DNA from: Candidatus Levyibacteriota bacterium
Lineage (GTDB): Bacteria > Patescibacteriota > Microgenomatia > Levybacterales > UBA12049
Direction: 5' to 3'
NCBI GenBank assembly: GCA_043807135.1
Contig: JAZDGF010000003.1
Location: 72,621 to 136,620 of the forward strand
DNA: 64,000 nt
The notes under the pieces were generated by a model. That model was not told the DNA's origin, did no database searches, and saw only the letters and a list, made by a program, of their open reading frames with translations. The position numbers and the translations under genes were made by a program. Positions 46,747 through 63,796 of the stretch are shown here, in pieces. The stretch's first letter is position 1. Every line of letters begins with the position of its first letter.

Positions 46747-47256
46747 TTAAAAAGTATTCTGCACTACTCTTATTTCAACTAATTGACTTGAAGCTTGTTT
46801 TGTAATTTCTATACCTATTTCTTGATGTTCATCTGCTCCTGAAAGCTTATTTAAAACATTTCCGTTTGTACTTGTTGAAACAAAAGAAACAGCATTCATT
46901 CCTATTTCTCTAATTCTTTCTTTATACCAATTTGTTATTTGTCCTACATCATCATAACTTTGCAAATTAATTGCGTTTCCTGAGTTACTTAGTTGCTGTG
47001 AATTAGGATAAACCCAAGTATTGCTTATTCCCTGTACCTGTTTTACTTCACTTGTAAAAGTAGGAGTATTTTCAATTATTGTATTTGTTTGAATCGGTAT
47101 CTTTGTTGGAATAGGTGTAGGTGTTTTTTCTTCTAAAACAGGTGTTGGCGTTAATATTTTTGGCGCAAATGTTTTTTCGTCTTGTCTTAAAACAGAACTT
47201 TTAGAAAAAAGAATAAACAAGACTAATAAGATAAGAAGAATTTTTAAACTATTCAC
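46747..47256 (-). CDS. Secreted hypothetical protein with a signal peptide and Pro/Thr linker
   Basis: The 169-aa protein begins MNSLKILLILLVLFILFS and has a PT-rich linker. It is the last gene of the co-directional cluster. Confidence 0.5.
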   Translation of the reverse strand: MNSLKILLILLVLFILFSKSSVLRQDEKTFAPKILTPTPVLEEKTPTPIPTKIPIQTNTIIENTPTFTSEVKQVQGISNTWVYPNSQQLSNSGNAINLQSYDDVGQITNWYKERIREIGMNAVSFVSTSTNGNVLNKLSGADEHQEIGIEITKQASSQLVEIRVVQNTF

Positions 47257-47284
47257 AATCTATATTATAGAGGATTAATGCAAG

Positions 47285-49666
47285 TTAATTAATATTTACA
47301 ATAAGTTCGTTTTCCTTACCTACTGAAAGAGAAACTTTATTTCCTCTGTTTATTTCTCCTGATAAAATCTTTTTTGCAATATTATCTTCTATGCCATTTT
47401 GAATAAAACGTTTTAATGGTCTTGCTCCAAATTGCTCGTCAAATCCTTCGCTTGAAACTTTTTTAACAATATTTTCATCAAAACTAAGATTAACGTCTTT
47501 TTCGGCAATTCTTCTTACCAAATCTTCTAAAAGCATTTTTGAAATTAACATAACCTGTTCTAATCCTAATGGTTTAAATACAATTGTGTCATCAAATCTG
47601 TTTATAAGTTCTGGTTTAAATATTCCGTTTATCTGCAAAAACTCAAATAATCTTTCTTTAAATGCCTTATCTAAAACAATTGATTTTTTAACTTCTTCAC
47701 GAATGAACTCAGAGGCTGCATTTGAAGTTGCAATAATAATTGTATTTGCAAAAGAGACAGTTTTTCCTTTATTGTCAGTTAATCTTCCATCATCTAAAAC
47801 CTGAAGAAATAAATCGAGAATTCTTGGATGTGCTTTTTCAAATTCATCAAGCAAAACCAGAGAATATGGATTATCATAAACTTTATCCGTTAATTCTCCT
47901 TTTTCAGATCCTTCTCCAGGAAGAGCACCAAGAAGTCTTTTACCACTATCTTCCTGTGAGTACTCACTCATATCAAGTCTTATCATCCGTTCACTTGATC
48001 CATAATAACTTTCTGCTAAGGCTTTTGCAGTTTCTGTTTTCCCAACTCCGGTAGGACCCATGAATAAAAAGGAAATTGGCCTTCTTTGATCTGTCAGACC
48101 TGATCTAAGCCTTCTCATTGCTTCTGAAATTGCCACAACTGCCTCATCTTGATCAATAACTCTTTTATGAATTTGTTCCTCCAGATGTAGAAGCAATTGC
48201 TTTTCTTTTTCTTTTGGAATGCCTATCGCACTTTTTATCTTTCTTTCTAAGAAAGAGATAATATCTTCTTCTTCGAGTATATTTTTACCGTTTGCTAATG
48301 CAAAAGTTGAAGCATCTTCTAAGAGAACAATTGCAGAGCCAGGAAGAACCAAATTTCTATTGTATTTATCTGCATAATTTAAAGAGGCAAGAAGTCCTCT
48401 GTAGCTTATTTGAATATTCTTGCTTTTTTCCACATACCAAGCATTTCTAAAAAGCATCATAAGAGCAGTATTTTTATCAGGCACATCAAGCCTTATTGTT
48501 TGTAAGGCACCCATTAGCTCATGCCTTTGTTCAATTTGCTTTTTAAAAGCAACTGGAGTTGTAGTTGTAATTAATCTGATTACTCCTTTTTCAATATATG
48601 GGATGAGGGCAGAAGATAAATCTAACTTGTATGAAGAATTACCTAATATATTTTCAAAATCCTTAACTAAAATAATGATATCCCCTGCATGAGCAAGTTC
48701 CACAACCATTAATCCAAGTCTTTCTTCAAGCTCTCCTTGACTTTCTGCTCCTGCTAAAAAAGAATCTACCATTAATTGAAAAATTCTTTGGTGATAAAGA
48801 TTTCCTTTTAGTTTTCCAGAATAACTATCAAGAGCTAACTTTTGAATTAAAGAATCCTTGCCACTTCCCGGCTCACCAATAATAAGCACGCTTTTTTTCT
48901 CCATAAGTCCTTCTAGGAGCATTTTATATTCTTCATCTCTTCCAATTATTTCAGGGCTTCTTCTTAAGATTTCTGAAGTTAAATCAACCATATATTTTTT
49001 AATTTCAATTGTCCATCCGTAAACCCATGGTTCACCAACTCCCTCTCCCCAAAACTCCACTCTATTGTGTTTTGTTTTTTCAAGCTTATCAAAGCTCATT
49101 CTTGCCCAAATTAAAATTCTTAATAAATCATCTTCCTTAAGTTTATTTTTAAAAAGTAGTTTTGTTTTATCCTCTGTGTTTAAAAAGTAAGCTGCAAAAA
49201 CATCAACTTCTGTTACAAAATTTCCGTTTATTTTTTTTACCAAGTACATTGCTGTTTGCATAAGCTTTTCTTTGAAAACACTTTCTTTTACTAAATCCTC
49301 TTTTTTAATATCCATTTTAGTTAACATAAATTTCCCAATTTTTTGTTTTTTTAGTTTTTCTAAGATTTCACTTTCATGATCAAAACAAAGAACAATTGCT
49401 TCAAGAGTAAAGGAATTAAAAATATCTTCCTTATTTTCCAAAACTTTTACACTTGGAAACTTTCGATAGATTTTTCTCTTAAAGAAAATTTCAATAATTA
49501 AGAATAGGCAAAGGAAAAATAACGGAAATTTAATGTTGACTAGTTTTTGAGGAATAATTAAGAACTGATTAACTACTGCAATAATTAGAAGAGCAAATAT
49601 TAAAAACCTTATTAATTCTATAATTCTTGAGGAGTAAAAATAATAAAGCTTTGCGTAATTTTTCAT
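47285..49666 (-). CDS. Membrane-anchored Hsp100/Clp-family ATPase with two AAA+ modules; D1 degenerate, D2 canonical
   Basis: The 793-aa protein has two N-terminal TM helices, Clp_N-like repeats, D1 (GEPGSGKDS; ILVKDFENIL) and D2 (GPTGVGKTE; LVLLDEFEKAH; ATSN). Confidence 0.75.
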   Translation of the reverse strand: MKNYAKLYYFYSSRIIELIRFLIFALLIIAVVNQFLIIPQKLVNIKFPLFFLCLFLIIEIFFKRKIYRKFPSVKVLENKEDIFNSFTLEAIVLCFDHESEILEKLKKQKIGKFMLTKMDIKKEDLVKESVFKEKLMQTAMYLVKKINGNFVTEVDVFAAYFLNTEDKTKLLFKNKLKEDDLLRILIWARMSFDKLEKTKHNRVEFWGEGVGEPWVYGWTIEIKKYMVDLTSEILRRSPEIIGRDEEYKMLLEGLMEKKSVLIIGEPGSGKDSLIQKLALDSYSGKLKGNLYHQRIFQLMVDSFLAGAESQGELEERLGLMVVELAHAGDIIILVKDFENILGNSSYKLDLSSALIPYIEKGVIRLITTTTPVAFKKQIEQRHELMGALQTIRLDVPDKNTALMMLFRNAWYVEKSKNIQISYRGLLASLNYADKYNRNLVLPGSAIVLLEDASTFALANGKNILEEEDIISFLERKIKSAIGIPKEKEKQLLLHLEEQIHKRVIDQDEAVVAISEAMRRLRSGLTDQRRPISFLFMGPTGVGKTETAKALAESYYGSSERMIRLDMSEYSQEDSGKRLLGALPGEGSEKGELTDKVYDNPYSLVLLDEFEKAHPRILDLFLQVLDDGRLTDNKGKTVSFANTIIIATSNAASEFIREEVKKSIVLDKAFKERLFEFLQINGIFKPELINRFDDTIVFKPLGLEQVMLISKMLLEDLVRRIAEKDVNLSFDENIVKKVSSEGFDEQFGARPLKRFIQNGIEDNIAKKILSGEINRGNKVSLSVGKENELIVNIN

Positions 49667-49667
49667 A

Positions 49668-49997
49668 TTAAATAAAAATTAAATAAAATGTCAGTATTGG
49701 AAAAGCAATAAATAAAAGAATAAAGGAAAATTCAATAAGTAAAACTATTGCCATTAAAAATAAATCCGCGAGAATTACAAAGGTTTTAATAAAAATTCCC
49801 ATACCTATTGAAAAACCAACAAGTCCCTCTCTGTACTCATTTTTCCAAGGCTTAAAGTACGTTTTTACTAAAAGTGGAAGAGAAATAATACCCATTATTG
49901 TCTTATTTAGAGATATAAAAAAGGAAATAAGTAAAACAGGAGCTTCTATAAACCAAAAGCGTAATAGAATTAATGGCAGACTTAAATAAAAGAGCAT
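49668..49997 (-). CDS. Small polytopic membrane protein, coupled to the downstream Clp-like gene by a 1-nt gap
   Basis: The 109-aa protein has three to four hydrophobic helices. Confidence 0.45.
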   Translation of the reverse strand: MLFYLSLPLILLRFWFIEAPVLLISFFISLNKTIMGIISLPLLVKTYFKPWKNEYREGLVGFSIGMGIFIKTFVILADLFLMAIVLLIEFSFILLFIAFPILTFYLIFI

Positions 49998-50037
49998 AGT
50001 TTAAGTTTAGAAAGTTTTACGACTAAATGCAATTAAT

Positions 50038-51981
50038 TTAATTTATAGGTGTACATTTGAGGCTACAAATTTGAATACCATCTTCTCTTGAAGTACATGC
50101 AGGGTCAAAAACACAATTAGCCGTTTTATAAATGGTTGTAGTTGTGGTAGAAGTTCCTAAACCTCCTTCTCCAGGCAAACTACAATCAGAAGGACAATTT
50201 ACATTTGTTTCTCCTAATTCACAGGTTCCATTTCCACAAGTATTATTTCCTCCAGGCAAACTACAATCAGAAGGACAATTTACATTTGTTTCTCCTAATT
50301 CACAGGTTCCATTTCCACAAGTATTATCTCCTCCTCCGGGGTTTGCTCCTGGCGGAATTATAAAGCTAAAAATAAGACCAAAATTACTAGTATTAATATT
50401 AATAGGGTTCGAAGGGAAAACAATTGTCCCTGCTTTTGCGGAAATATTATAGCTACCAATAGGAAGAGAAGTAAATGCGTATTCACCGTTACTATTAGTT
50501 GTGATAGTGCCACTGTATGGACCCGACAAAGTAATTGTTGCTCCTTGAATACCTTGTTCTCCTGGATCAAAAGTATTATTACTGTTTTGATCTATAAAAA
50601 CTGCACCCGAAATAAAGGGCCTATTTTGAAGAGAAGGATCGCCTCCTCCTGGATTAGTCCCTCCCGTTGTAGTTGTTGTTGTCTGTGTTGTTGTTCCTCC
50701 ACAATATTTTGGCAAAACATTAGTTCTAATCCAATATTTTTCTACAGAGTCAAATATTGGTTGTGTTGCACAACCTACTGCACTCATCATAGTGTTTGCA
50801 TTACCACTTGCTACTAGGTTTGGGTTAGCAGGTTTTGGACAAGTTAATGGAGAAGAAGCATAATTATTTATATTACTACAGCCCTTGTATGATCCTTGCC
50901 CGCCTGCTGTTTGCCAAAAACTTTCTCCGCTTGGATTATTCGTACAATTACTTTTTATTCCCCCTTGTATTTGTCCATAGCCTAAGTTTGAAGAGACATA
51001 GCGATCATACAAGAGGCCTATTGCATGACCTAAAAATTCATGCGCTGCAACTACTCTGGTGGTATTAGTAATATTTCCTCCATTATTTGGGAAAACTGCA
51101 ACGTTTCCCCCAATTCCGCTTGTTACTCCAAGCGCACCCCCTGAAATTACCATATCAACTAAAACTATTACTTTTGAAGCATCCGGATAAGTAGATTTTG
51201 CTATTTGCATAATTCTAGTGCTACCCACACAATTAAGGCTTGCTTTACACCCTAAAGATTCTGAATTGTCAACTACTCTAAAATCAAAAATGCTTTGTGT
51301 GTTGTACGGATCAACTGAAAGATAAATTTGCTTAAAAGCATCTACATCTTGATGAAACTTATTAAAATCCGTATACCCATCACTTACAAATGCAACAACT
51401 AAAGGACTACATCCTTGTGTCTGGGCATGGGCTTTGGGTAAATTAAAAAAATTTAGAGAATTTTTTTTTACAGGGAGCTCAATTTTCAAGATATTCTCAC
51501 TATTCTCTTTAATAAGAATCTTTGTTCCTTTGTCTAAGTATGGAACATAAATAACCGTATCTAATTTATCAGGAATTTCAGGCTGAGAACTTCCCGAAGC
51601 AGGAGCATTTATAGACATATCATATAAAGGATCTGTTGTAATGTTTATTTTTGTTCTATAAAGCACTTCATCACCTGAAGAATACATCACTAACTCGTAT
51701 GGCGAAAAATCTGCACTTCTATTATCTTGTGATATTTTTTTATCAATAAGGGTTACTTCTTTTAAAACAAGCTCTCTTTTGTCCGTATTAAAAGTAAGTA
51801 TTACCTCCCATGTCTTATAATTTGGTTTTTGCTCTGTAGTTACTGTCTTTTTAGACATAAATAAAGCGATTGGAATTGAGAATAAAACAATTAGAATAAT
51901 TACAACAAAAATGATTTTTTTTGGAATTGATATCTTTTGAAAAAATGAATTAATTTTACTTAAAAATCCCTCGTTATTCAT
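50038..51981 (-). CDS. Secreted multidomain protein with an N-terminal anchor, an HEFLGH (HExxxH) zincin-like segment, a Cna-B/SdrD-B-type fold and two Cys-rich 27-aa repeats
   Basis: The 647-aa protein contains AAHEFLGHAIGLLYDRY, then SGAVFIDQNSNNTFDPGEQGIQGATITLSGPYSGTITTNSNGEYAF, then two copies of NTCGNGTCELGETNVNCPSDCSLPG. Confidence 0.55.
   Translation of the reverse strand: MNNEGFLSKINSFFQKISIPKKIIFVVIILIVLFSIPIALFMSKKTVTTEQKPNYKTWEVILTFNTDKRELVLKEVTLIDKKISQDNRSADFSPYELVMYSSGDEVLYRTKINITTDPLYDMSINAPASGSSQPEIPDKLDTVIYVPYLDKGTKILIKENSENILKIELPVKKNSLNFFNLPKAHAQTQGCSPLVVAFVSDGYTDFNKFHQDVDAFKQIYLSVDPYNTQSIFDFRVVDNSESLGCKASLNCVGSTRIMQIAKSTYPDASKVIVLVDMVISGGALGVTSGIGGNVAVFPNNGGNITNTTRVVAAHEFLGHAIGLLYDRYVSSNLGYGQIQGGIKSNCTNNPSGESFWQTAGGQGSYKGCSNINNYASSPLTCPKPANPNLVASGNANTMMSAVGCATQPIFDSVEKYWIRTNVLPKYCGGTTTQTTTTTTGGTNPGGGDPSLQNRPFISGAVFIDQNSNNTFDPGEQGIQGATITLSGPYSGTITTNSNGEYAFTSLPIGSYNISAKAGTIVFPSNPININTSNFGLIFSFIIPPGANPGGGDNTCGNGTCELGETNVNCPSDCSLPGGNNTCGNGTCELGETNVNCPSDCSLPGEGGLGTSTTTTTIYKTANCVFDPACTSREDGIQICSLKCTPIN
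50171..50332. repeat. Near-perfect 81-bp tandem direct repeat, two copies, inside the secreted-protein gene
   Basis: ccaggcaaactacaatcagaaggacaatttacatttgtttctcctaattcacaggttccatttccacaagtattat occurs twice with period 81. It is also visible as a repeated peptide in the opposite-strand ORF 50132-50452. Confidence 0.85.
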
Positions 51982-54626
51982 ACGGAATTATTATTTAACG
52001 GATTGGCATTAACAGCCATTGTTTGCCCCTCTCCTATAGTAGGAGTTGGTGGAATTGAGTCAGGTGGAACCGGAGGCACCTGATTTTGATCCTGAATAGC
52101 ACCGTTTATCGGATTCTGAACTGACTGTCCTGGCTGTTGAGCTTGTTGTTTTTGCACCTGCTCTCCTGGTTTTTGAATCGCCTTTGTAAAAACAAATTCT
52201 TCTTTTTGAGAATTGTAATCAATAAGAATTTTATCTCCTTGAACAAAAGTTTTTTTGATAAGGAAAAGAGCTATTGGATTCTCGATTGCCGTTTGAATTA
52301 ATCTTCTTAAAGGCCTTGCACCATATACAGGATCGTAGCCTTCTTCAGCAAGCCTTGCCAAAGCTGCTTCGCTTGCTTCAAGATCAACTCCTTGCATAAG
52401 TAATAATTTCTTAGTTGCATTTATTCCAAGCCTTGCCACTTGAGTCATATTTTTCTGACTTAAGGGTTCGAAAACAATTACTCCGTCAAACCTATTTAAA
52501 AGCTCAGGCCTAAAGAATTTTCTAAGCTCCCCCATTAAAATTTTTGTTAATTCTGCAAATTTCTCTTTTGCTTCTTCCAGTATTTTTTCAGGCTGTAGGA
52601 TTTGTGCATTTTTATCTTCTTTCGTAACCTTATCTTGCAATTGCTGTTGAATTAAAGCGCTACCAATATTTGAAGTTGCAATTATAATGGTGTTTTTAAA
52701 GGAAATCGTATTTCCTTTATTGTCGGTTAATCTTCCATCTTCTAATAACTGAAGCAAAATATTAAATACATCGGGATGAGCTTTTTCTACTTCATCTAAA
52801 AGAACTATTGAGTATGGTTTCGCTCTTACGGCTTCTGTTAATTGACCACCTTCTTCATAGCCAACATATCCAGGAGGAGCTCCAATAAGTTTTGCTACTT
52901 CGTGTTTTTCCATATATTCACTCATATCAAGCCTGATCATTGACTGTTCTTTTCCAAAAAGAACTTGGGCAAGAGTTTTAGCAAGTTCTGTTTTTCCAAC
53001 ACCAGTAGGACCAAGGAAAATAAAGGAAGCAATTGGTCTATTAACACTTGAGAGTCCGATTCTTCCTCTTCTTACAGCTTCCGCAACTAAACTTACTGCG
53101 TTTTCTTGATTAATCAGTCTTTTATGAATTGTTTCTTCTAGACGAAGCAGTTTTTCACTTTCGTTTTCGGTTAATTTAGTAATTGGTATTCCTGTCCAGT
53201 TGCTTACTACTTTTTCAATATCTTCTCTTTTTATTTCATTTCCTTGCCTTTTCCCGGCATTAAGCTCAAGTCTTACTTGTGCTGATGCTTCATCTAAAAG
53301 ATCTACTGCCTTATCAGGAAGATAACGCTCTCCAATATATCTTTTAGAAAGTTTTACAGATGCCTCTATTGCCTCAGGGGTAGCTTTTACTTTATGGAAT
53401 TCTTCATATCTTGGGACCAAAATCTTAATCATTTCAATTGCTGCTTTTTCGTCCGGTTCTTCAACTAAAACTGGCTGAAATCTTCTTTCAAAAGCTTTAT
53501 CTTTTTCAAAATACCTTCTGTATTCAACTGTAGTTGTGGTTCCAATTATTTGCAGTTGCCCACGTGCAAGGAATGGTTTTATGATATTTGATGCATCTAA
53601 AGCTCCTTCTGTATCTCCTGCTCCAATTATGCTGTGAATTTCATCAATAAATAAAATTACATTTCCTGCTGCTTGAGTTTCTTTAATTACTCCCCTTAAT
53701 CTTTCTTCAAATTCTCCTCTATGCGATGCACCTGCAACCAAAGATGAAAGATCAAGTTGAATAATTTTTTTTGCTTCAAGATCCTTGGGCGCTTTTCCAC
53801 CAACAATATCTTGAGCAAGACCTTCAACAATTGCTGTTTTACCAACTCCTGCCTCTCCGATAATAATAGGGTTATTTTTTGTTCTCCTTAAAAGAATGTG
53901 AGTAAGTCTTTCTACTTCTCTATCTCTTCCGGTTATAGGATCAAGATCTCCATTTTTAGCTTGCTCTGTAAGATTAATTCCGAATTGTTCAAGCGTTGAT
54001 TTTTTACCATATACAAAAGTAGAAGACTTAGATAATTGTTTTTCTATTTTTTCTTTATCAAGCCCTTGTGATTTCAAATAATCAGATACTGCCATGTTTT
54101 GAGAAAATAAAGAGACAAGTAAATCTTCCGGGCTTATAAATTCAACGCCTCTTGATTTAATAGTTGAATATGCCTGCTCAAAAACATGCTTGGAATTTTC
54201 AGAAAGCATAGGCTGTCCTTCAAAAGTTCCTGCTTGTTCTTTTGCCTGCAACTCCTTTGAAAGCTTGGCAACATCTACTGAAAATTTTGAAAGTAGGGCA
54301 AAAACTTCAGAGTCAAATAAAAGACCTAATAAAATTTGCTCAGGCTCTATTAATCCTTGTTTAATTCTTTTTGTTTCCTGCTGTGCTTGATTTAAAATTT
54401 GAGTGGTTCTAGAATCTAGATGAGAAAGAATTGATAAATCCTGTCTTTGTCCCGGCTGCATAGAAGAACTAACTATACCGTCCTGCTGAGGATTTGAAGG
54501 AGAAGAAGGAATGGGCGGTTGTTGCATGGGTGACTGCCCTAACGGTGGCATAACCGGCTGCTGAGATTGATCTTGCTTAATTTCGTTTTCTTCTTTTTTC
54601 TTTTGACTAAATAAATTTCCTAACAT
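51978..54626 (-). CDS. clpC: ClpC/ClpB-type Hsp100 ATPase with Gln/Pro-rich N- and C-terminal extensions
   Basis: The 882-aa protein has Clp_N repeats, D1 (GEAGVGKTA; ILFIDEIH), D2 (GPTGVGKTE; IVLLDEVEKAH) and no obvious ClpP-binding IGF loop. Confidence 0.85.
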   Translation of the reverse strand: MLGNLFSQKKKEENEIKQDQSQQPVMPPLGQSPMQQPPIPSSPSNPQQDGIVSSSMQPGQRQDLSILSHLDSRTTQILNQAQQETKRIKQGLIEPEQILLGLLFDSEVFALLSKFSVDVAKLSKELQAKEQAGTFEGQPMLSENSKHVFEQAYSTIKSRGVEFISPEDLLVSLFSQNMAVSDYLKSQGLDKEKIEKQLSKSSTFVYGKKSTLEQFGINLTEQAKNGDLDPITGRDREVERLTHILLRRTKNNPIIIGEAGVGKTAIVEGLAQDIVGGKAPKDLEAKKIIQLDLSSLVAGASHRGEFEERLRGVIKETQAAGNVILFIDEIHSIIGAGDTEGALDASNIIKPFLARGQLQIIGTTTTVEYRRYFEKDKAFERRFQPVLVEEPDEKAAIEMIKILVPRYEEFHKVKATPEAIEASVKLSKRYIGERYLPDKAVDLLDEASAQVRLELNAGKRQGNEIKREDIEKVVSNWTGIPITKLTENESEKLLRLEETIHKRLINQENAVSLVAEAVRRGRIGLSSVNRPIASFIFLGPTGVGKTELAKTLAQVLFGKEQSMIRLDMSEYMEKHEVAKLIGAPPGYVGYEEGGQLTEAVRAKPYSIVLLDEVEKAHPDVFNILLQLLEDGRLTDNKGNTISFKNTIIIATSNIGSALIQQQLQDKVTKEDKNAQILQPEKILEEAKEKFAELTKILMGELRKFFRPELLNRFDGVIVFEPLSQKNMTQVARLGINATKKLLLMQGVDLEASEAALARLAEEGYDPVYGARPLRRLIQTAIENPIALFLIKKTFVQGDKILIDYNSQKEEFVFTKAIQKPGEQVQKQQAQQPGQSVQNPINGAIQDQNQVPPVPPDSIPPTPTIGEGQTMAVNANPLNNNSV

Positions 54627-54631
54627 ATTTT

Positions 54632-55990
54632 TTATTGTGAACAGGTAAATGGATTATCTTTATTTGTTTTTACCATTCCGCCCCATTCAACTGCCGTAAA
54701 TCCTTTTCTTTGAGGCGTTACAATTACCGGTTCTTTTATATTAACTTTTTTATCTAATGCTTCAAAATATAATCTTACTCTAATAAACACATCAGGATTT
54801 GGATTAAAGAATATCGGCTCAATTTGATCAATATCATTTTTTGTCATAACTCCTACAAAATAGTATGGAGAAATAGGTAAAACTTTTTCCCAATATTCTT
54901 TAAATTCTTTACTTTCTTTTTCATTTAATCCCAATTTTGGCAAAAGTTTATCAAATAAAGACCCTAATTCATCTCTTTTGACTACATATCCTTTTTGAGG
55001 TTTTTTTACCAAATTATCAGGAATCTTTGATTCATAGTATAAATACGGATAAGTATTGTTTTCTAATGTAATTAGTCCTTTTTTATCTGCAAGGACTGTC
55101 CAACCTTCTTCTGGATAAGAAGGAATGGTTAAAGTTAATATTCCTTTTGTCTTTACTTTCACATTTACTTCCTCTTCTTTTTCAGGATACAGATAAATTG
55201 CTGGTTTACAGGCAGGAGTCCACCAAGAATACGATCTTGTTGTTACAAAAGTTACTTTCTTAAGCTGAAGAGATTTTTCTCCCTGAGCAGGAGGGGGAAT
55301 TGGCGTATCTACCCAAAGATACTCATAGATATTATCTCCATTTTTTAAATAAATAGTTCCCAGATGATAAAATAATGAATAATTAGTTTGTCCTACCTTT
55401 AATTTTCCAATTTCTTTTACTTCGCTAAGATTATTAAGAGAGCTAAAAACTGTAACATTCCCATTATGAACATAGCCAGGGGCAACCGATGGCTCTGTTA
55501 AGCCAATTATGTCTGTTTTATTAAATGAACTTGGAGGAAATGTATTCTCATCTCCTTCAACAATAGTAAGTTTTCCTCCTGTTGATTTGCAGTTTTTAAT
55601 ATAATCGGGGATTGCTGCTCCATCTTTTATATAAAGATCAAAAACATATGGAGATTCTAGAGTTGTATTTTTCAATTGGAAAACAATTATCGGATCTACT
55701 TTTTGACCAAAATAATTACTTGTCAGTGCGTAAAGATTATTTCCAAGCGAATTTAATTCTTTAAATTTATACTCTTCAATAATTTCTGCATCTTTTTTTA
55801 TTAAGTTATACTGAACTCCGTTATATGACACTGTTTGGGAAGTACTTGGTGGATCAAAATCAACACAAGAAGCTGTTGGAGAAACAGGTGTATAATTTTG
55901 ATTTTTATTTGGACTTATTGAAAACAAACCCGCCAAGGCTACCGCAGCAATTACTACAACCCCTAAAGTAAATATCACAAGCTTGTTCAT
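54632..55990 (-). CDS. Secreted/anchored hypothetical protein
   Basis: The 452-aa protein has an N-terminal signal anchor and no recognisable motif. Confidence 0.5.
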   Translation of the reverse strand: MNKLVIFTLGVVVIAAVALAGLFSISPNKNQNYTPVSPTASCVDFDPPSTSQTVSYNGVQYNLIKKDAEIIEEYKFKELNSLGNNLYALTSNYFGQKVDPIIVFQLKNTTLESPYVFDLYIKDGAAIPDYIKNCKSTGGKLTIVEGDENTFPPSSFNKTDIIGLTEPSVAPGYVHNGNVTVFSSLNNLSEVKEIGKLKVGQTNYSLFYHLGTIYLKNGDNIYEYLWVDTPIPPPAQGEKSLQLKKVTFVTTRSYSWWTPACKPAIYLYPEKEEEVNVKVKTKGILTLTIPSYPEEGWTVLADKKGLITLENNTYPYLYYESKIPDNLVKKPQKGYVVKRDELGSLFDKLLPKLGLNEKESKEFKEYWEKVLPISPYYFVGVMTKNDIDQIEPIFFNPNPDVFIRVRLYFEALDKKVNIKEPVIVTPQRKGFTAVEWGGMVKTNKDNPFTCSQ

Positions 55991-56032
55991 AAATTTATTG
56001 TAACACTATTTTTAAAATCAAGAAAAATCTTT

Positions 56033-58309
56033 TTATTTAATCTTTTCATCTATCTTTGCTTCCTCTGCCATTTCTTTTGGTTTTTCTTCTTTCTTAGTCC
56101 TTGCAGAAAGCATTGTGTCCTCTTCTTCTTGTTTACTTTTAAGTTTTCCTACTACAGACTTTGCTGCTTCAAGTTTTGCCTTAAGATAAGCAACTACTTC
56201 AGTCTGAGAAAATCCTCCAATCAGAAGGAAAGGAAGAATATTTCCAACTGCTTCCATTCCCTTATCAACATTTTGTGTATCTTGTGAAGAAAGAAGATTA
56301 ACTGTATCTGTAATCTTTCCAATATCTGCGTTTATCCATTCTGCTCTCTCCTGTTGTTTTGGAGGCTCAAGTGTTTCATAATTTTCCTCCCACATCTTTC
56401 TAACTGCTTCATAATCATCAAGGCTTACTTGCTGCACTCTGTTTGTAACAGGGAATGGCCCTGAAGAAACTTTAGATATATCCGTAACTCCTGCCTCCTC
56501 AAGCACCATTGCAGCAATTGAATTCCCTTTTTCTTTTGCTTCTTTAAGTCTTTCCTTAAGTGCTTCATCTGCTCCTTCTTTATCCATTGCAGAAAGAATA
56601 GAGACTGCAAGAGGATTACCATTTTTTTGCGCTTTTATTAATTGATCTTTTATTGTTGTTAATTTTTGTTTTTCTGCAATGTTTGCAGTATTTGGACTTG
56701 CAATCTTTTGAAGTGCCGTATTAAGACGTGCTGTTTCTTTTTGAGACTGAACAACCATTTCCGGCTTATTAATAGTGCTTGCAGCAGTAAGAATAGAACT
56801 TGCAACTCTATTTCCTTTTTGACCTTCCTGAACAAGTTTATCTTTTATCGATGTATATTTCTCTCTTTCTATTGTTGAGCTTAATTTCTTTGGATTAGCA
56901 ATTCTTTCTAATGATTCGTGATATTTTGCAAGTTCTGTGTGCTTACTCATGCTTGAACTTAAAGAAGCAGTTTCAAATTTTGCAATATCTCTCATTGTTG
57001 GAATAGATAAATTAGTAAGTTTCGTAATCTCTAACTGCATTGATCTTATGTTTGAGATGTCCATTGGAATACTTTGCGTCTTTATGTTTGGTATTGAAAT
57101 CTTAGCAGCAAAAGGAATAGTTTTTGCCATACCTGTTGGCTGATGAGATGAAAGAGGCGAAGGAGGCGGAGCCTGGGGAGAACTTTTTGATTTTGACATA
57201 AACGAAGAACCTGATTCTACCAATTGTTTTACAAAAGAATTCTCACTAAAGGATAACGTTTGGATATAATCAAGAAAAATCTGCAAAAGTAAAAAAGGAA
57301 GAATTATAATAACCCAAAGCATAAGAAGTGCAACAACGTAAAGTGCAAAAGACTCCTTATTATTTACACTGTTACTTAAAGACAAAACCTGTCCTGGGCC
57401 TCCTAAGAGAATATTAATTGCTGTTGGATAAACAACTGTATTTGAAAAGGCGAATTGTAAAGGAATACCAGTTCGCCAAACATAAACAAGTCCTGATAAA
57501 AAGATAGCAAAAATAGGAGCATACAAAAGCCAGCGGAAAAATTCTCCAATCCAAATTTTTCCAGTATTTCTAATTGGGGAATATAGCAAAAGAAGCGGAA
57601 ATACGGGAGAAATGATTATGAAAAACCACAGGATAATTTTTCTTATTAAAAGAATTCCTGCCATTACATAATAAGTTGCTGCAGTAAGTTTTATTAAAAG
57701 AAGGGAAATAAAAGCAGATTCATCAAAAGGAGCACCAAATCTTCTATAACCTGTAAAATCCTGATAATTAAATCCTATGTTTAAAAGGTTTTTTTGGGAA
57801 ATAAAACCGGTTCCTTCAGGATTTTTTAAGAAAAAGCCCTGAATTACATCTATAATCTGATACAAAAACTGGATAAGCGCAAAAGAAAATGTAACTAAAA
57901 GAATGATGATAATAAATCTTGGAATAAAACGCATAACCGTAATGCTTCTTCCGCGGGTTACGATCATAATAAATGCTGTTATTAAAACTGCTAAAGCAAA
58001 GAAAGCGTAAACAATATTTCTAATTTGTGACCAGAAATTAGCAAGCGGATTCTGAGTACCTGCAGTAACAAATGACCAGCTATAATTTTGAAGTGTCCAA
58101 TCTAAAAATTGTCCTGATCTTGCTCCCATTTTTCCAACAAAAGTAACATCTGAATCATTAACCCAGGTTCCATCGCCAGGTTGACCTGTTGCAGATGTAG
58201 GAGAAGTTGTTGAAGGACTACTCGGATCAATTTGAGCAATAGCTGGAGCAACAAATAACAAACTAACTATTGTTATTAAAAGAAATAAAAAGGGCAGGAA
58301 TTTTTTCAT
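56033..58309 (-). CDS. VirB6/TrbL-like polytopic membrane protein with a long repeat-containing hydrophilic C-terminal domain
   Basis: The 758-aa protein has a signal peptide, an exposed segment of about 100 aa, 6 or more TM helices, and a roughly 400-aa C-terminus with three repeats (KGNRVASSILTAAS / NGNPLAVSILSAMD / KGNSIAAMVLEEAG). Confidence 0.4.
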   Translation of the reverse strand: MKKFLPFLFLLITIVSLLFVAPAIAQIDPSSPSTTSPTSATGQPGDGTWVNDSDVTFVGKMGARSGQFLDWTLQNYSWSFVTAGTQNPLANFWSQIRNIVYAFFALAVLITAFIMIVTRGRSITVMRFIPRFIIIILLVTFSFALIQFLYQIIDVIQGFFLKNPEGTGFISQKNLLNIGFNYQDFTGYRRFGAPFDESAFISLLLIKLTAATYYVMAGILLIRKIILWFFIIISPVFPLLLLYSPIRNTGKIWIGEFFRWLLYAPIFAIFLSGLVYVWRTGIPLQFAFSNTVVYPTAINILLGGPGQVLSLSNSVNNKESFALYVVALLMLWVIIILPFLLLQIFLDYIQTLSFSENSFVKQLVESGSSFMSKSKSSPQAPPPSPLSSHQPTGMAKTIPFAAKISIPNIKTQSIPMDISNIRSMQLEITKLTNLSIPTMRDIAKFETASLSSSMSKHTELAKYHESLERIANPKKLSSTIEREKYTSIKDKLVQEGQKGNRVASSILTAASTINKPEMVVQSQKETARLNTALQKIASPNTANIAEKQKLTTIKDQLIKAQKNGNPLAVSILSAMDKEGADEALKERLKEAKEKGNSIAAMVLEEAGVTDISKVSSGPFPVTNRVQQVSLDDYEAVRKMWEENYETLEPPKQQERAEWINADIGKITDTVNLLSSQDTQNVDKGMEAVGNILPFLLIGGFSQTEVVAYLKAKLEAAKSVVGKLKSKQEEEDTMLSARTKKEEKPKEMAEEAKIDEKIK

Positions 58310-58321
58310 AATTTCTTGTCT

Positions 58322-58606
58322 TTATTTAAAACCAGGTATATGCAATATGTCAATAGCAATTATTTGAACAAAAACATAGCCAAAAATTGCTAAAAGCAAA
58401 CCTATAATAGCATAGAAAATATAGCTTTTACCCGTATTTAGTTTATCAGGATTTCCTTGAGAAATAAGAATCATGTATCCTCCGTAGATAATAAATAAAA
58501 CGGAAACTCCGCCAATTAAACCTAAACCAATAGCATAAAATTTTGTAACAAAACCTATCGGATCATTAGGAATACATCCCAATTCCGTAGGTGTACAATC
58601 AGGCAT
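58322..58606 (-). CDS. T4SS-pilin-like (TrbC/VirB2-like) small membrane protein
   Basis: The 94-aa protein has an N-terminal Cys pair (CTPTELGC), two hydrophobic helices separated by a GNPDKLNTGKS loop, and sits directly upstream of the VirB6-like gene. Confidence 0.4.
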   Translation of the reverse strand: MPDCTPTELGCIPNDPIGFVTKFYAIGLGLIGGVSVLFIIYGGYMILISQGNPDKLNTGKSYIFYAIIGLLLAIFGYVFVQIIAIDILHIPGFK

Positions 58607-59618: not shown

Positions 59619-60515
59619 TTAAAACCAGCTTTTCTTCTTGCTTCCTTCTCCTTCAAACTCTCTAAGAAGTTCCTTTTGTTGAGAGGTTAAATTTTTGGGA
59701 ATAACTACTTTTATTTTTACGTAATGATTTCCTTTTCCCGAACCACGCAAATGAGCAATTCCTTTTTGGGCTAGTCTAAAAACTGTTTCTGGTTGAGTAC
59801 CGGAAGGAATTCTTAATTTTACTTTTCCATCTACAGTTTCTACATCGATATTTCCTCCAAGCGTAGCTATTGCAAAAGATATTTCTTCTTCAGAAACAAT
59901 ATCTTGTCCTTGCCTATGAAAATGTGAATCAGGTTTTACCTTTACTAAAACATCGTAATCATTAAAACGAATTCTGGATCCATCATCTACGCCTGCGGGG
60001 ATTTTAATTTTTTGACTTTTATTTTCGATCCTAACCTGTTTTTCAACACCTTTAACTGCTTCCATAAAATTAATTGTTATGGAATAAATAGCTCTTCTTT
60101 GTCTTTGCGCGCCAAACGGGGAACCACCACCAAAAAACTCCCTAAAAATTTCAAAAGGGTCGGAAAAGCCACCAAAATCAAAATCATTGGCATTACTGTT
60201 TGAATAAGTATAGGTAAATGGCCCATATTGTCCACCTTGCTGCCCTGAAAAACCACCAAATCCTCCAAACGGTCCTTGACCGGTTGGTCCTCCTTGCTCA
60301 AAAGCAGCACTGCCAAACTGATCATAAGTTTGTCTTTTTTGCGGATCTGATAATGCCTCATATGCTTTACTTACCTCTTTAAATTTTAGCTCTGCTTCTT
60401 TTGTTCTATTTTTATCAGGATGATACTGAACTGCAAGTTTTCGATATGCTTTTTTAATTTCTTCTTGAGAAGCTGATTTATTTACTCCAAGAATTTTATA
60501 AAAATCTTTCTCCAT
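59619..60515 (-). CDS. dnaJ: DnaJ-class co-chaperone (J domain plus G/F region, no zinc-finger; type II/CbpA-like)
   Basis: The 298-aa protein has a J domain with HPDKN, a G/F-rich linker and C-terminal substrate-binding domains. Confidence 0.9.
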
Positions 60516-60533
60516 AGGTTTAATTATATTACA

Positions 60534-60554
60534 AAAGCGCGTTTGCCGCGCTTT
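60534..60554. promoter_or_regulatory. GC-rich perfect hairpin AAAGCGCG-tttgc-CGCGCTTT between dnaK and dnaJ
   Basis: An 8-bp perfect stem with a 5-nt loop in a gap that is otherwise about 25% GC. On the minus strand it is followed by UUUUG. Confidence 0.45.
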
Positions 60555-60580
60555 AAAAAATTAGATATATTTGATATCTA

Positions 60581-62482
60581 TTAATTAACTACTTCGCCTT
60601 CTACTGGCTCATCTGAACCCTTATCGTCTTTTTTTGCTTCCTCTTTAGACTCACTAGGCTCATCTTTTTTTGCTTCTTGTTCTGGCTGTTGCTTTTGATA
60701 CATTGCTTGTCCAACTTTTTGCAAAGAATCTGAAAGTTCTTTTGTTTTTGCTTCTAAGTCTTCTTTTGAACCTGTATCTAAAATTCCTTTAAGAGCTGAG
60801 ATTTTTTCTTCAATTTCTTTTTTGTCATCTTCTGAAACTTTATCTTTTGCATCACTTAAAGTTTTTTCTGCAGTAAAGATTAATGAATCTGCTGCATTTC
60901 TTGCTTCGACTTTTTCCTTTTTCTCAGCATCTTCCTTGGCATGAATTTCTGCTTCTTTAGTCATTTTTTCAACTTCATCAGGAGTAAGTCCTGTTGAGCC
61001 GGTAATTTTTATGCTTTGTTCTTTTCCGCTTGCTTTATCTTGAGCTTTTACATGCAAAATTCCGTTTGCATCAATATCAAAAGTCACTTCCACTTGTGGA
61101 ACACCACGCGGTGCAGGTGGAATTCCGTCAAGAATAAATCTGCCAAGCGACTTATTATCAGGAGCCATTGAACGCTCTCCTTGTAATACATTAATTTCAA
61201 CTTGAGTTTGATTATCAGCTGCTGTTGAAAATACTTGAGATTTAGAACTTGGAATAGTTGTATTTTTTGAAATAAGCGGTGTTGAAACATTTCCTAATGT
61301 TTCAATTCCAAGTGTTAAAGGAGTTACATCTAAGAGAAGCACGTCTTTTACTTCTCCTCCTAAAACTCCTCCTTGAATTGCAGCACCAACTGCAACAACT
61401 TCGTCAGGATTAACCGATTTATTAGGCTCTTTACCAAAGAATTTTGTAACTTTTTCAATAACTTTTGGCATTCTGGTCATTCCACCAACTAAAATAATCT
61501 CATCAACATCTGATGCTTTAATTTTTGCATCTTTCAAAGCAAGTTCAACCGGCTTTAAAGTTTTTTCAATTAAAGGTTCTACTATTTGCTCTAGTTTTGA
61601 GCGAGACAAACTCATTGTTAAATGAAGAGGACCGTTTTTTCCTTGAGTTATAAAAGGCTGATTAATTTGTGCCTCTTGAGAACTTGAAAGCTCAATCTTT
61701 GCTTTTTCAGCTGCTTCTCTTAATCTTTGCAGTGCTTGAGAATCTTTTTTTAAATCAACTCCGTTTTCTTTTTTGAATTCATCAGCCAGATAATCAATAA
61801 TTATCTTATCAAAATCGTCTCCTCCTAAGTGAGTATCACCATTTGTTGATTTTACTTCATAAACTCCATCACCAAGCTCTAAAATAGAAATATCAAACGT
61901 CCCGCCTCCTAAATCATAAACTGCAATTGTATGGGCATTTTTTTTATCAAGTCCATATGCAAGAGCTGCTGCTGTAGGTTCGTTAATAATTCTAAGGACT
62001 TCAAGTCCGGCAATTTCTCCAGCCTGTTTTGTTGCTTGTCTTTGAGAATCATCAAAATATGCAGGAACTGTAATTACTGCTTGAGTAATTTTTCCACCTA
62101 AATAGCTTTCTGCATCTGATTTTATTTTTTGAAGAATTTTTGCAGATATTTCCTGTGGAGTATATGTTCTTCCGTCTACTTCAACAACGACCATTCCATC
62201 ACGGCCTTCTTTTATGTTGTAGGGAAGCCATTCTTTATCATGCTTAACAGACTCATCTTTATATTTTTTACCCATCAACCTCTTAATTGAGAAGATCGTT
62301 GTTTTGGGTTTTAAAACAAGTTGTCTTTTTGCAACGTCACCGACAACATGTGAAACAGGATCGACAACCGAAGGAATTGTATTTTTCCCCTCTGCCGAAT
62401 GAATTACTTTAGGGCTTCCGCCTTCCATAACAGCAACACATGAATTTGTTGTACCTAAATCTATTCCAATTATTTTTCCCAT
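60581..62482 (-). CDS. dnaK: Chaperone DnaK (Hsp70)
   Basis: The 633-aa protein contains [14 protein letters not shown] and DLGGGTFD, and has an acidic C-terminus. Confidence 0.97.
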
Positions 62483-62549
62483 ATTTTTCCTTTTTTTATA
62501 AAATTTAAAATGAAAAATCTAAATTTATTTAAACTTTTCGCTTTAAACT

Positions 62550-62996: not shown

Positions 62997-63004
62997 AATT
63001 TATA

Positions 63005-63736: not shown

Positions 63737-63766
63737 AATTCTTTACTCCAAGTACTAATTTAGCAG

Positions 63767-63796
63767 TATGATAACATGACTGCCAATTTATGTCAA
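63767..63796 (-). promoter_or_regulatory. hrcA promoter TTGACA-17nt-TATCAT flanked by CIRCE-like half-sites (coordinates +/- 2 nt)
   Basis: Minus strand reads TTAGCACaaaaaaacctcTTGACAtaaattggcagtcatgtTATCATaCTGCTAA. The half-sites match CIRCE arms but are spaced about 37 nt apart instead of 9. Confidence 0.45.

What the first reader, a model, noticed from the sequence alone, without database searches (positions are those of the whole stretch)
46747..58606. Eight-gene co-directional cluster mixing T4SS-like membrane parts, two Hsp100/Clp ATPases and secreted proteins: a candidate novel export or surface-structure module
All eight minus-strand genes are separated by -4 to +42 nt, so they look like one operon. 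In order they are a VirB2/TrbC-like pilin, a VirB6/TrbL-like channel protein, a secreted protein, a ClpC/B-type unfoldase, a secreted Cna-B/Cys-repeat protein with a zincin-like motif, a small TM protein, a TM-anchored Clp paralogue with an inactive-looking D1, and another secreted protein. No VirB4, VirB11 or VirD4 ATPase is present. If the association is real, AAA+ unfoldases would sit where T4SS ATPases normally do, and I do not recognise that combination as a described system. It may instead be a remnant conjugation island next to protein-quality-control genes.
Basis: partly seen in the sequence, partly recalled or inferred. Interest (0 to 1): 0.7.

Follow-up and report, generated by a model that had tools for sequence, protein, structure and literature searches.

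The report
VirB6-like, pilin and Clp gene module
In an uncultured ultra-small bacterium (Levybacteria), a pilin-like and a channel-like protein related to type IV secretion parts always sit beside an unusual Clp/Hsp100 ATPase that in some relatives carries the same repeat as the channel protein's tail, which points to a new ATPase–membrane machine but does not prove one.

Summary
The eight tightly spaced minus-strand genes are real. They lie in the core chromosome of a Candidatus Levyibacteriota MAG, between hrcA-grpE-dnaK-dnaJ and nusA-infB, so this is not a remnant island. Family-level HMMs support g1 as a T4SS_pilin (VirB2-like) protein and g2 as a divergent extended TrbL/VirB6.

g4 is a two-ring Hsp100 with no M-domain and no ClpP-docking loop. 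g7 is membrane-anchored, has a dead D1, and lacks a pore-loop tyrosine in either ring. In other lineages g7 is fused to the small TM protein g6.

Across 80 Levybacteria species, pilin, VirB6-like and Clp are adjacent wherever the contig allows (77/78 and 67/67). In one subclade the trio sits between dnaK and dnaJ.

The new evidence is a helical repeat from the VirB6-like tail that recurs as a C-terminal extension of the Clp in 13 loci and in no other protein. A published survey finds VirB4 in only about 45% of Levybacteria genomes.

Outside Levybacteria, VirB6-like orthologues are almost never next to a Clp (1/80). My verdict is two linked sub-modules (g1-g2-g4 and g6-g7) plus variable secreted proteins. 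A functional VirB6-like/Clp link is plausible. "Clp replaces VirB4" remains a hypothesis.

The parts
58322..58606 (-). g1: 94-aa VirB2-like pilin of the T4SS_pilin family. It has two TM helices (residues 30-48 and 67-85), a conserved N-terminal Cys pair (C4, C11) and no long signal peptide.
   Evidence: PF18895 scores E 9.4e-5 (22.9 bits, below the 26.6-bit threshold) on the window protein. 45/46 orthologues match, best 2.5e-8. NCBIfam gives a sub-threshold hit to the Mbov_0395 pilin-like family.
56033..58309 (-). g2: 758-aa extended VirB6/TrbL-like polytopic membrane protein. It has a signal peptide, a TM core and a long helical tail.
   Evidence: The window protein has no Pfam hit, but 10/32 family members match PF04610 TrbL. 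P0079 scores 26.7 bits, above the 25.9-bit threshold, over residues 110-287 against profile positions 5-189 of 215. hhalign against R388 TrwI gives P 0.0028 over the same region. The highest-probability Foldseek hits are 8rtd_H/I at probability 0.84 but E 0.7. Those chains are probably TrwI, by analogy with 7o3v chains F-J. There are 238 representative relatives at E<1e-30.
57275..58015 (-). TrbL/VirB6-like TM core of g2 (residues ~99-345). It includes the invariant IRNTxKIWxGEFFRW motif.
   Evidence: The topology of five TM helices with the N-terminus outside and the C-terminus inside is inferred from the positive-inside rule and from the cytosolic Clp carrying the tail repeat.
56465..57022 (-). 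Helical repeat region of the g2 tail (residues ~430-615). It holds three units with the motif NP..E+xKY..hKxKL..A..KGNxLAxSIL. The same repeat occurs at the C-terminus of the Clp in 13 related loci.
56105..56452 (-). Conserved C-terminal domain of g2 (residues ~620-735). Relatives give weak DUF7441 hits here.
   Evidence: Invariant columns are listed.
54632..55990 (-). g3: 452-aa secreted or anchored protein with a conserved C-terminal domain of unknown family. It is a variable member of the cluster.
   Evidence: It has an N-terminal hydrophobic segment. It has no Pfam, NCBIfam or PDB sequence match. It is present in about 18 of 80 Levybacteria loci, and g3-like genes also follow the VirB6-like gene in some non-Levybacteria loci.
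51978..54626 (-). g4: 882-aa cytosolic class-I Hsp100/Clp ATPase with Clp_N, D1 and D2. Both Walker sites and the D2 GYVG pore loop are intact. The D1 pore-loop Tyr is replaced by His. It has no M-domain and no ClpP-docking loop. Both ends carry Q/P-rich extensions.
   Evidence: Pfam and NCBIfam results are; every equivalog model scores below its cutoff. Alignment to ClpC shows the M-domain gap. Motif conservation across 71 orthologues is. The PDKA-to-WTGIP spacing is 40 aa in 55/64 sequences, and 0/61 carry an hGF tripeptide.
50038..51981 (-). g5: 647-aa secreted protein with an HEFLGH motif, an SdrD_B (Cna-B-like) domain and a duplicated Cys-rich unit. It is a variable member of the cluster.
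   Evidence: PF17210 scores E 1.8e-11. An 81-bp tandem duplication at 50169-50334 is 98% identical. The positional counterpart in L003 carries Peptidase_M4 plus SdrD_B.
49668..49997 (-). g6: 109-aa multi-TM protein and obligate partner of g7.
   Evidence: It lies immediately upstream of g7 in the loci that carry both. It is fused to the N-terminus of the TM-Clp in P0235 (59% identity over 102 aa, E 8e-38). It matches no Pfam family.
47285..49666 (-). g7: 793-aa membrane-anchored Clp paralogue with a TM hairpin at residues 21-60. D1 is degenerate (Walker A GKD, Walker B DF). The D2 ATPase site is intact. Neither ring has a pore-loop tyrosine, and there is no M-domain.
   Evidence: It is collinear with g4 at 36% identity, with no gap at the D1/D2 junction.
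46747..47256 (-). g8: 169-aa secreted protein, poorly conserved. It is the last gene before a 570-nt gap.
   Evidence: Homologues appear in only 2 related loci.
59619..63736 (-). Upstream heat-shock operon hrcA-grpE-dnaK-dnaJ. It is the conserved context, and in a subclade it encloses the pilin-VirB6-like-Clp trio.
   Evidence: Pfam results are. The synteny is shown.
63760..63786 (-). CIRCE-like HrcA operator TTGGCAGTC-N9-TACTGCTAA, overlapping the -10 of the best promoter match.
   Evidence: It occurs upstream of hrcA in 65 related loci and never before the pilin or Clp genes.

Best explanation
This is a Levybacteria-wide, chromosomally fixed envelope module built from two sub-units.

Sub-unit 1 consists of a VirB2-like pilin (g1), a divergent extended VirB6/TrbL-like membrane platform (g2) and an atypical stand-alone Hsp100 ATPase (g4). 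g4 has no M-domain, so it has no canonical DnaK coupling. It has no ClpP loop, so it is not a protease partner. The cytoplasmic helical-repeat tail of the VirB6-like protein and the ATPase are functionally coupled, most simply by the ATPase docking on or next to that tail. The ATPase would then use its intact D2 pore to pull on, unfold or recycle something at this platform, either pilin subunits or exported clients.

Sub-unit 2 is a small TM protein (g6) plus a membrane-anchored Clp paralogue (g7). g7 has only D2 active and has no pore-loop tyrosines, so it probably acts as a membrane-bound regulatory or scaffolding ATPase rather than a threading motor.

Variable secreted proteins (g3, g5, g8) are carried in the same locus. 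The whole block sits in, or directly after, the HrcA/CIRCE-controlled dnaK operon.

Shown here: the gene families, the motif states, the conserved order, the shared repeat and the g6-g7 fusion. Inferred: the cytoplasmic location of the tail, docking of the ATPase, and what the ATPase acts on.
For: Adjacency is invariant in 80 species-level genomes: pilin upstream in 77/78 and Clp downstream in 67/67. This holds although the VirB6-like protein diverges to 38% identity and the surroundings are rearranged (dnaJ relocated, 0-4 variable genes inserted).

The trio is kept without the hrcA-dnaK context in L004 and L047. It also recurs in a different order, VirB6-like then Clp then pilin, in the unrelated locus L120.

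The tail repeat of the VirB6-like protein occurs in 1-5 copies at the C-terminus of the Clp in 13 loci and in no other ORF of 166 loci (E 1e-19 to 1e-46). The reciprocal search confirms this with zero hits to reversed-sequence controls. Genomes whose Clp carries the repeat have longer VirB6-like tails (median 1235 vs 789 aa, P 6e-4, not corrected for phylogeny).

g6 is fused to g7 in P0235-type proteins.

In the published survey VirB4 was detected in 20/44 Levybacteria genomes, against 34/39 ABY1/Paceibacteria genomes in the same part of the table. Three of the six genomes that I could match to my loci are VirB4-negative (PMC12102498 Table S1).

A 2025 T4SS review mentions neither Clp nor Hsp100 and says the role of extended VirB6 tails is unknown (PMC12857230).
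Against: Outside Levybacteria the VirB6-like orthologues still carry the repeat tail (71/84), yet only 1 of 80 sits next to a Clp. They sit instead beside cohesin-like LPXTG proteins, a SpoU methylase or a peptidase.

The Levybacteria genomes compared are fairly close (DnaK 72-92% identical), so much of the synteny could be inherited rather than selected.

A close relative keeps hrcA...dnaJ and TM-Clp-nusA with no trio between them. This shows that g6-g7 is separable from g1-g2-g4.

The window's own g4 lacks the repeat extension.

Placement inside the dnaK operon fits a plain chaperone role for g4 equally well.

There is no interaction, expression or structural data, and all sequences come from MAGs.
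Confidence: 0.5

Rival explanations
1. The arrangement is synteny by descent only. g4 and g6-g7 are the lineage's general proteostasis ATPases and belong with the hrcA-dnaK heat-shock genes. The pilin and VirB6-like genes are unrelated envelope or T4SS parts that became fixed in the same place. They work alone, as a pilus or adhesion platform, or with a VirB4 encoded elsewhere.
For: The association is confined to one order-level clade whose DnaK proteins are 72-92% identical. Outside that clade 79 of 80 VirB6-like genes have no Clp neighbour. The trio lies in or next to the CIRCE-controlled dnaK operon, and no separate operator precedes it. About half of Levybacteria do have VirB4. The P0235 lineage keeps the chaperone genes without the trio.
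Against: This reading does not explain why a repeat otherwise exclusive to the VirB6-like tail is found on the Clp, nor why it co-expands with the tail. It does not explain why the trio stays together when the dnaK context is lost (L004, L047) or why it recurs in L120. g4 lacks the M-domain that a DnaK-coupled disaggregase needs.
Confidence: 0.3
2. This is membrane protein quality control. The VirB6-like tail acts as an adaptor that localises a ClpP-independent unfoldase to the membrane. There the unfoldase clears stalled or misfolded secreted and membrane proteins. The T4SS-like proteins have been repurposed, and no pilus or secretion channel is involved.
For: The module sits within the heat-shock locus. 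The shared repeat fits an adaptor or tether role. Genes for secreted proteins are interleaved with the module. A second membrane-anchored Clp paralogue is encoded in the same locus.
Against: The pilin-like partner and the strongly conserved extracellular and TM features of g2 have no role in this model. No protease partner is present in the locus. g7 lacks pore-loop tyrosines.
Confidence: 0.15
3. The cluster is a remnant conjugative or integrative element lying next to protein-quality-control genes.
For: The VirB2-like and VirB6-like genes occur without VirB4, VirB11 or VirD4 in the window.
Against: The block occupies the same chromosomal position in at least 67 species. Its GC content of 0.30-0.36 equals that of the flanks. 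No integrase, relaxase or repeat boundaries are present. The proteins are under strong conservation, with many invariant columns.
Confidence: 0.02

Closest known systems
Patescibacteria T4SS (VirB4-centred and MPF-FATA-related, with VirB2-like pilin arrays; Quinonero-Coronel et al. 2025, PMC12102498; Wang et al. 2023, as cited in PMC12857230)
   Same: Both lie in the chromosome and lack a relaxase. Both use T4SS_pilin (PF18895) proteins and VirB6 homologues in monoderm CPR bacteria.
   Different: No VirB4, VirB3, VirB8 or T4CP is present in this locus. That study found VirB6 'scarce' in Microgenomatia and detected VirB4 in only about 45% of Levybacteria. Here the neighbours are Hsp100 ATPases and dnaK, which that paper and the 2025 review do not mention.
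Extended VirB6 proteins (Rickettsiales VirB6-like paralogues, F-plasmid TraG). This comparison rests on my own knowledge and on PMC12857230.
   Same: Both have a TrbL/VirB6 TM core followed by a large extra C-terminal region whose function is unknown.
   Different: The tail here is a distinct helical repeat with no detectable fold match, and it is shared with a Clp ATPase.
ClpV in type VI secretion, and housekeeping ClpB used for sheath recycling in Francisella. This comparison rests on my own knowledge.
   Same: In both cases a ClpP-independent Hsp100 is recruited to a secretion apparatus to remodel or recycle a structural polymer.
   Different: No T6SS genes are present. g4 scores below the TssH equivalog cutoff (677 vs 885 bits). 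The recruitment element would be a VirB6-like tail rather than a VipB helix.
VirB4 as a pilin dislocase acting on the VirB6 platform (Agrobacterium, and the R388 structure). This comparison rests on my own knowledge. The R388 entries 7o3v and 8rtd appear.
   Same: Both combine a minimal pilin, a VirB6 platform and a hexameric ATPase on the cytoplasmic side. The arrangement of the small TM protein g6 directly before the ATPase g7 resembles VirB3-VirB4.
   Different: The ATPases here are AAA+ Hsp100 proteins, not VirB4/HerA-FtsK-type. The resemblance is by analogy only. g6 matches neither VirB3 nor any other Pfam family.
The archaeal Ced DNA-import system (CedA as VirB6-like, CedA1 as VirB2-like, CedB as VirB4-like). 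This comparison rests on my own knowledge.
   Same: Both are minimal chromosomal sets of VirB2-like, VirB6-like and ATPase genes without the rest of a T4SS.
   Different: The Ced ATPase is VirB4-like. No DNA-handling genes are present in this locus.

Membership tests
Type IV secretion system (VirB/MPF) | VirB4-family ATPase, the signature protein | tested here: not met
   No VirB4, CagE or AAA_10 hit on any ORF of the window. No VirB4-sized ATPase appears in the gene tables I read for four related loci; the other related loci were searched only with the window's own proteins, not screened for VirB4. The rest of the genome could not be searched. The published survey lists VirB4 in 20/44 Levybacteria.
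Type IV secretion system (VirB/MPF) | VirB6/TrbL polytopic membrane protein | tested here: inconclusive
   The window protein has no PF04610 hit. Ten of 32 family members match, one above the threshold (26.7 vs 25.9 bits) over profile positions 5-189 of 215. hhalign against TrwI gives P 0.0028 and probability 11%. Foldseek gives probability 0.84 but E 0.7 to R388 chains.
Type IV secretion system (VirB/MPF) | VirB2-type pilin | tested here: met
   PF18895 T4SS_pilin matches 45/46 orthologues, best 2.5e-8. The window copy is sub-threshold at 22.9 vs 26.6 bits. There is no similarity to R388 TrwL, as expected for a separate Pfam family.
Type IV secretion system (VirB/MPF) | Coupling protein or relaxase (conjugative type) | tested here: not met
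   None is present in the window. A T4CP-like gene was seen only in the unrelated locus L120.
ClpB disaggregase | Long coiled-coil M-domain between D1 and D2, which mediates DnaK coupling | tested here: not met
   g4 aligns to ClpB and ClpC with the M-domain missing. The PDKA-to-WTGIP spacing is 40 aa in 55/64 orthologues, against 95 aa in the ClpC-like L120 protein. TIGR03346 scores 874 bits, below its 1232-bit cutoff.
ClpA/ClpC (ClpP partners) | ClpP-docking (I/L/V)-G-(F/L) loop in D2 | tested here: not met
   0/61 orthologues carry such a tripeptide in the loop region. In g4 the aligned ClpC 'AGFGG' segment is replaced. ClpA equivalog models score below their cutoffs.
ClpV / TssH | Equivalog-level match and a T6SS gene context | tested here: not met
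   TIGR03345 scores 677 bits, below its 885-bit cutoff. No T6SS genes are present in the window.
Class-I Hsp100/Clp AAA+ (general) | Clp_N domain, two AAA+ rings and the D2-small domain, with Walker A and B intact | tested here: met
   g4 meets all of these, and the motifs are invariant in 71 orthologues. g7 has only D2 intact; its D1 Walker A and B are degenerate and both pore-loop aromatics are absent.
HrcA/CIRCE heat-shock regulon | CIRCE inverted repeat at the promoter | tested here: met
   The element is present upstream of hrcA at 63760-63786, with 0 expected by chance, and in 65 related loci. It is not present before g1 or g4, so any control of the cluster would have to come by read-through. 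In this window that read-through is interrupted by an opposite-strand ORF at 58679-59617.

The most novel reading that the evidence does not exclude
Levybacteria build a VirB4-independent surface filament or export device from a VirB2-like pilin and an extended VirB6-like platform. The device is powered or recycled by an M-domain-less Hsp100 ATPase that docks on the platform's cytoplasmic repeat tail. A second, membrane-anchored and pore-less Clp paralogue with its small TM partner plays a VirB3/VirB4-like scaffolding role. This would be the first case of an AAA+ Clp unfoldase serving as the motor of a T4SS-derived machine.
Probability: 0.2. Interest if true: 0.85.

Novelty: new variant of a known kind. 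Interest (0 to 1): 0.62.

Why it matters
T4SS-derived machines are essential for the epibiotic life of the only genetically tractable Patescibacteria. However, VirB6 was reported as 'scarce' in Microgenomatia, and the role of extended VirB6 tails is an acknowledged open question. This locus identifies a large, highly conserved divergent VirB6-like family, with 238 representative clusters at E<1e-30, that could be that missing component. It ties the family's tail, through a shared repeat, to an unusual Hsp100 ATPase in a lineage where VirB4 is often undetected. If the link is physical, it gives a concrete and testable example of motor replacement in a secretion or pilus machine. It would also give a function to an M-domain-less, ClpP-independent Clp. 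If the link is not physical, the result still shows that these T4SS-like genes are core chromosomal genes embedded in the heat-shock locus.

Tried and rejected
- A word-indexed protein search with a Clp C-terminal repeat extension as query returned nothing at E<=0.001, so the wider distribution of the repeat is unknown.
- A profile search of the VirB6-like family against PDB sequences found no VirB6, only chance helical hits.
- Foldseek on the full g2 model gave no significant hit. Only the probability ranking pointed to R388.
g3 and g5 have no PDB sequence relatives.
- A search for canonical CIRCE with up to 3 mismatches found nothing. A clade-specific variant was then found.
- g6 was tested as a VirB3-like protein and matched no Pfam family.
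- g1 compared with R388 TrwL showed no similarity.
- Rfam and tRNA scans of the window were empty.
- The remnant-island reading was rejected on synteny, GC content and the absence of mobility genes.
- The promoter and terminator scans were uninformative, since the counts did not exceed shuffled expectation.


Full report
**Where the window comes from**

The VirB6-like protein is 100% identical to a protein of an NCBI MAG named Candidatus Levyibacteriota. That places the window in the CPR/Patescibacteria, class Microgenomatia.

The window is core chromosome. It carries ribosomal-protein-sized genes, EF-Tu, EF-G and rpoB/rpoC. It also carries alaS, a sortase and ftsK. Further along come RNase J, PNPase, infB and nusA, and hrcA-grpE-dnaK-dnaJ. 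GC content is flat at 0.29-0.37 across the cluster and its flanks.

**The observation**

The eight minus-strand ORFs lie at the stated coordinates with gaps of -4 to +42 nt. No sense-strand terminator lies between the genes. Nearly all genes from 30 to 64 kb share this strand, so co-direction alone proves little.

The cluster is bounded upstream by a 312-aa ORF on the opposite strand (58679-59617), which separates it from dnaJ. It is bounded downstream by a 570-nt gap holding a small plus-strand ORF, followed by nusA.

**What the genes are**

- **g1** has two TM helices and a conserved Cys pair. It matches T4SS_pilin (PF18895) just below threshold. 45 of 46 orthologues match, best 2.5e-8. PF18895 is one of the VirB2 profiles used in the published Patescibacteria T4SS survey.
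- **g2** has no Pfam hit itself. Ten of 32 family members match TrbL/VirB6, and one exceeds the gathering threshold over nearly the whole profile. hhalign to R388 TrwI aligns the same region at P 0.0028. The two Foldseek hits with the highest probability are chains of the R388 inner-membrane complex, probably TrwI, although the E-value is not significant. I accept "divergent extended VirB6-like" at the family level. The family is large, with 238 representatives at E<1e-30. Conservation extends through a 400-residue tail.
- **g4** is a full Hsp100 with Clp_N, D1, D2 and D2-small, but it fails every equivalog cutoff. The M-domain is missing: the spacing is 40 aa in 55/64 orthologues, against 95 aa in a ClpC-like relative. 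No ClpP-docking tripeptide exists in 61/61. The D1 pore-loop Tyr is His in 66/71, while both Walker sites and the D2 GYVG loop are invariant.
- **g7** has an N-terminal TM hairpin. Its D1 Walker motifs are degenerate, its D2 ATPase site is intact, and it has no pore-loop aromatic residue in either ring. It is collinear with g4 without an M-domain.
- **g6** is a small multi-TM protein with no family match.
- **g5** has an SdrD_B domain, an HEFLGH motif and a recent 81-bp tandem duplication of a Cys-rich unit.
- **g3** and **g8** are signal-peptide proteins with no family match.

**Comparative genomics inside Levybacteria**

A scan of one genome per GTDB species found 320 relatives of g2, of which the best 80 were kept. 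In those 80 loci the order is hrcA-grpE-dnaK-(dnaJ)-pilin-VirB6-like-(g3)-Clp-(variable genes)-(dnaJ)-g6-g7-...-nusA-infB.

The counts are as follows:

| Feature relative to the VirB6-like gene | Loci |
|---|---|
| Pilin upstream | 77/78 |
| Clp within 3.5 kb downstream | 67/67 |
| TM-Clp within 10 kb | 38/43 |
| dnaK upstream | 60/61 |

The VirB6-like protein diverges to 38% identity, while DnaK stays at 72-92%.

In one subclade dnaJ lies after the Clp, so the trio sits between dnaK and dnaJ. A CIRCE-like operator precedes hrcA in 65 loci, and at 63760-63786 in the window. It never precedes the pilin or the Clp. Two loci, L004 and L047, keep the trio without the heat-shock genes.

**Two fusion or domain-sharing links**

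First, an HMM of the g2 tail repeat (residues 430-615) hits the C-terminal extensions of the g4-type Clp in 13 loci. Those Clp proteins are 1057-1513 aa and carry 1-5 copies, at E 1e-19 to 1e-46. The HMM hits no other ORF except VirB6-like proteins. The reverse search with the Clp extensions hits 79+10 VirB6-like tails, no reversed-sequence control and no other family. The motif is visible by eye. Genomes whose Clp carries the repeat have longer VirB6-like tails. The Clp has no TM segment or signal peptide, so the repeat, and hence the g2 tail, is most likely cytoplasmic. That fits a five-TM VirB6-type topology with the N-terminus outside and the C-terminus inside, which is an inference.

Second, P0235-type proteins (818-831 aa) are g6 fused to g7.

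These links define two sub-modules. In the P0235 locus, hrcA...dnaJ and the fused TM-Clp-nusA are present without the trio, so the two sub-modules are separable.

**Outside Levybacteria**

A metagenome scan seeded with a distant family member returned 80 loci. Most of these VirB6-like proteins keep the repeat tail (71/84). They sit in other conserved contexts, however. One is topA-SLT-...-PAP2-SpoU-VirB6-like-cohesin-like. Another is large secreted protein / cohesin-like LPXTG protein / VirB6-like / Xaa-Pro peptidase, with pilin-like pairs a few genes away.

Only L120 has a Clp neighbour. There the order is VirB6-like, then Clp (with a ClpC-length M-domain), then T4SS_pilin, with a T4CP-like gene nearby. 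Adjacency to Clp is therefore a clade feature, with one independent recurrence.

**Literature**

The 2025 survey of Patescibacteria T4SS centres on VirB4. It reports VirB2-like arrays and finds VirB6 scarce in Microgenomatia. It never mentions Clp.

In the part of its Table S1 that I read, VirB4 is listed in 20/44 Levybacteria genomes and in 34/39 ABY1/Paceibacteria genomes from the same sample series. Of the six genomes also present among my loci, three are VirB4-negative. MAG incompleteness is a caveat.

A December 2025 T4SS review contains no occurrence of Clp or Hsp100 and states that the role of extended VirB6 architectures is unknown. Other searches found nothing relevant.

**Interpretation**

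The remnant-island idea is rejected.

The best reading, at confidence 0.5, is a clade-fixed envelope module in which the VirB6-like platform and pilin are functionally coupled to an M-domain-less, ClpP-independent Hsp100. The coupling runs through the shared repeat. The module sits beside a g6-g7 membrane-anchored Clp unit and within or next to the HrcA-controlled dnaK operon.

The main rival, at 0.3, is inherited synteny of chaperone genes with unrelated envelope genes. It explains the clade restriction but not the shared, co-expanding repeat. A membrane quality-control variant gets 0.15.

The bold version is that Clp acts in place of VirB4 as pilin dislocase or export motor. It fits the evidence but is not demonstrated, and I give it 0.2.

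**Limits**

All evidence is comparative and comes from MAGs. No whole genome could be searched for VirB4, ClpP or a second ClpB. The repeat-expansion correlation is not corrected for phylogeny. The VirB6 assignment rests on weak but mutually consistent signals.

Noticed in passing
window 58679-59617 (+): A 312-aa ORF with no Pfam or NCBIfam match lies on the opposite strand between dnaJ and the pilin gene. Homologues occupy this position only in the two closest loci (L005, L006). It breaks any read-through from the hrcA promoter in this genome.
   Followed up: partly
window 50169-50334: An 81-bp tandem duplication (2.0 copies, 98% identical) inside g5 duplicates a Cys-rich 27-aa unit (CGNGTCELGETNVNCPSDCS...). 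It looks recent.
   Followed up: partly
window 23792-26939 (+): An 810-aa protein with a weak Baseplate_J hit (E 1.2e-6) is followed immediately by a sortase gene. This may be a surface or contractile-system-related protein.
   Followed up: no
window 38651-39736 (-): A 361-aa AAA+ protein has a Lon lid domain but no protease domain. It lies between the PNPase and RNase J genes. The same gene sits at the same place in the P0235 locus, and L085 has a Lon-lid AAA+ gene downstream of its PNPase.
   Followed up: no
window 46348-46596 (+): An 82-aa ORF with a TTG start lies in the 570-nt gap between g8 and nusA. It reads like a small beta-barrel protein and matches no family.
   Followed up: partly
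window 1-64000: The whole 64 kb contains no tRNA gene and no Rfam family at gathering score. This includes the regions around the ribosomal-protein and rpoBC genes.
   Followed up: no
loci L048, L050, L053-L055, L060, L061, L065, L069, L070, about 2.3-4.6 kb upstream of hrcA: A second CIRCE-like site (TTAGCACTC-N9-TACTGATAA) appears in one Levybacteria subclade. The gene it precedes was not identified.
   Followed up: no
L120:4013-16111: In an unrelated Patescibacteria contig, a VirD4/T4CP-like gene (TrwB_AAD_bind, TraG-D_C) lies four genes upstream of a VirB6-like, Clp, T4SS_pilin trio. That Clp has a ClpC-length M-domain and a C-terminal Cys4 motif.
   Followed up: partly
loci L087-L166: Outside Levybacteria the VirB6-like gene is flanked by cohesin-like proteins with LPXTG-type sorting signals (families F2, F12, F19). 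g3-like secreted proteins follow it in L105, L119, L121 and L162. Tandem pilin-like genes (F6) lie a few genes upstream on the other strand.
   Followed up: partly
window 35934-36923 (-): A Fic/DOC-domain protein with a C-terminal winged-helix domain lies among housekeeping RNA-processing genes. A Fic gene also follows dnaJ in the P0235 locus.
   Followed up: no
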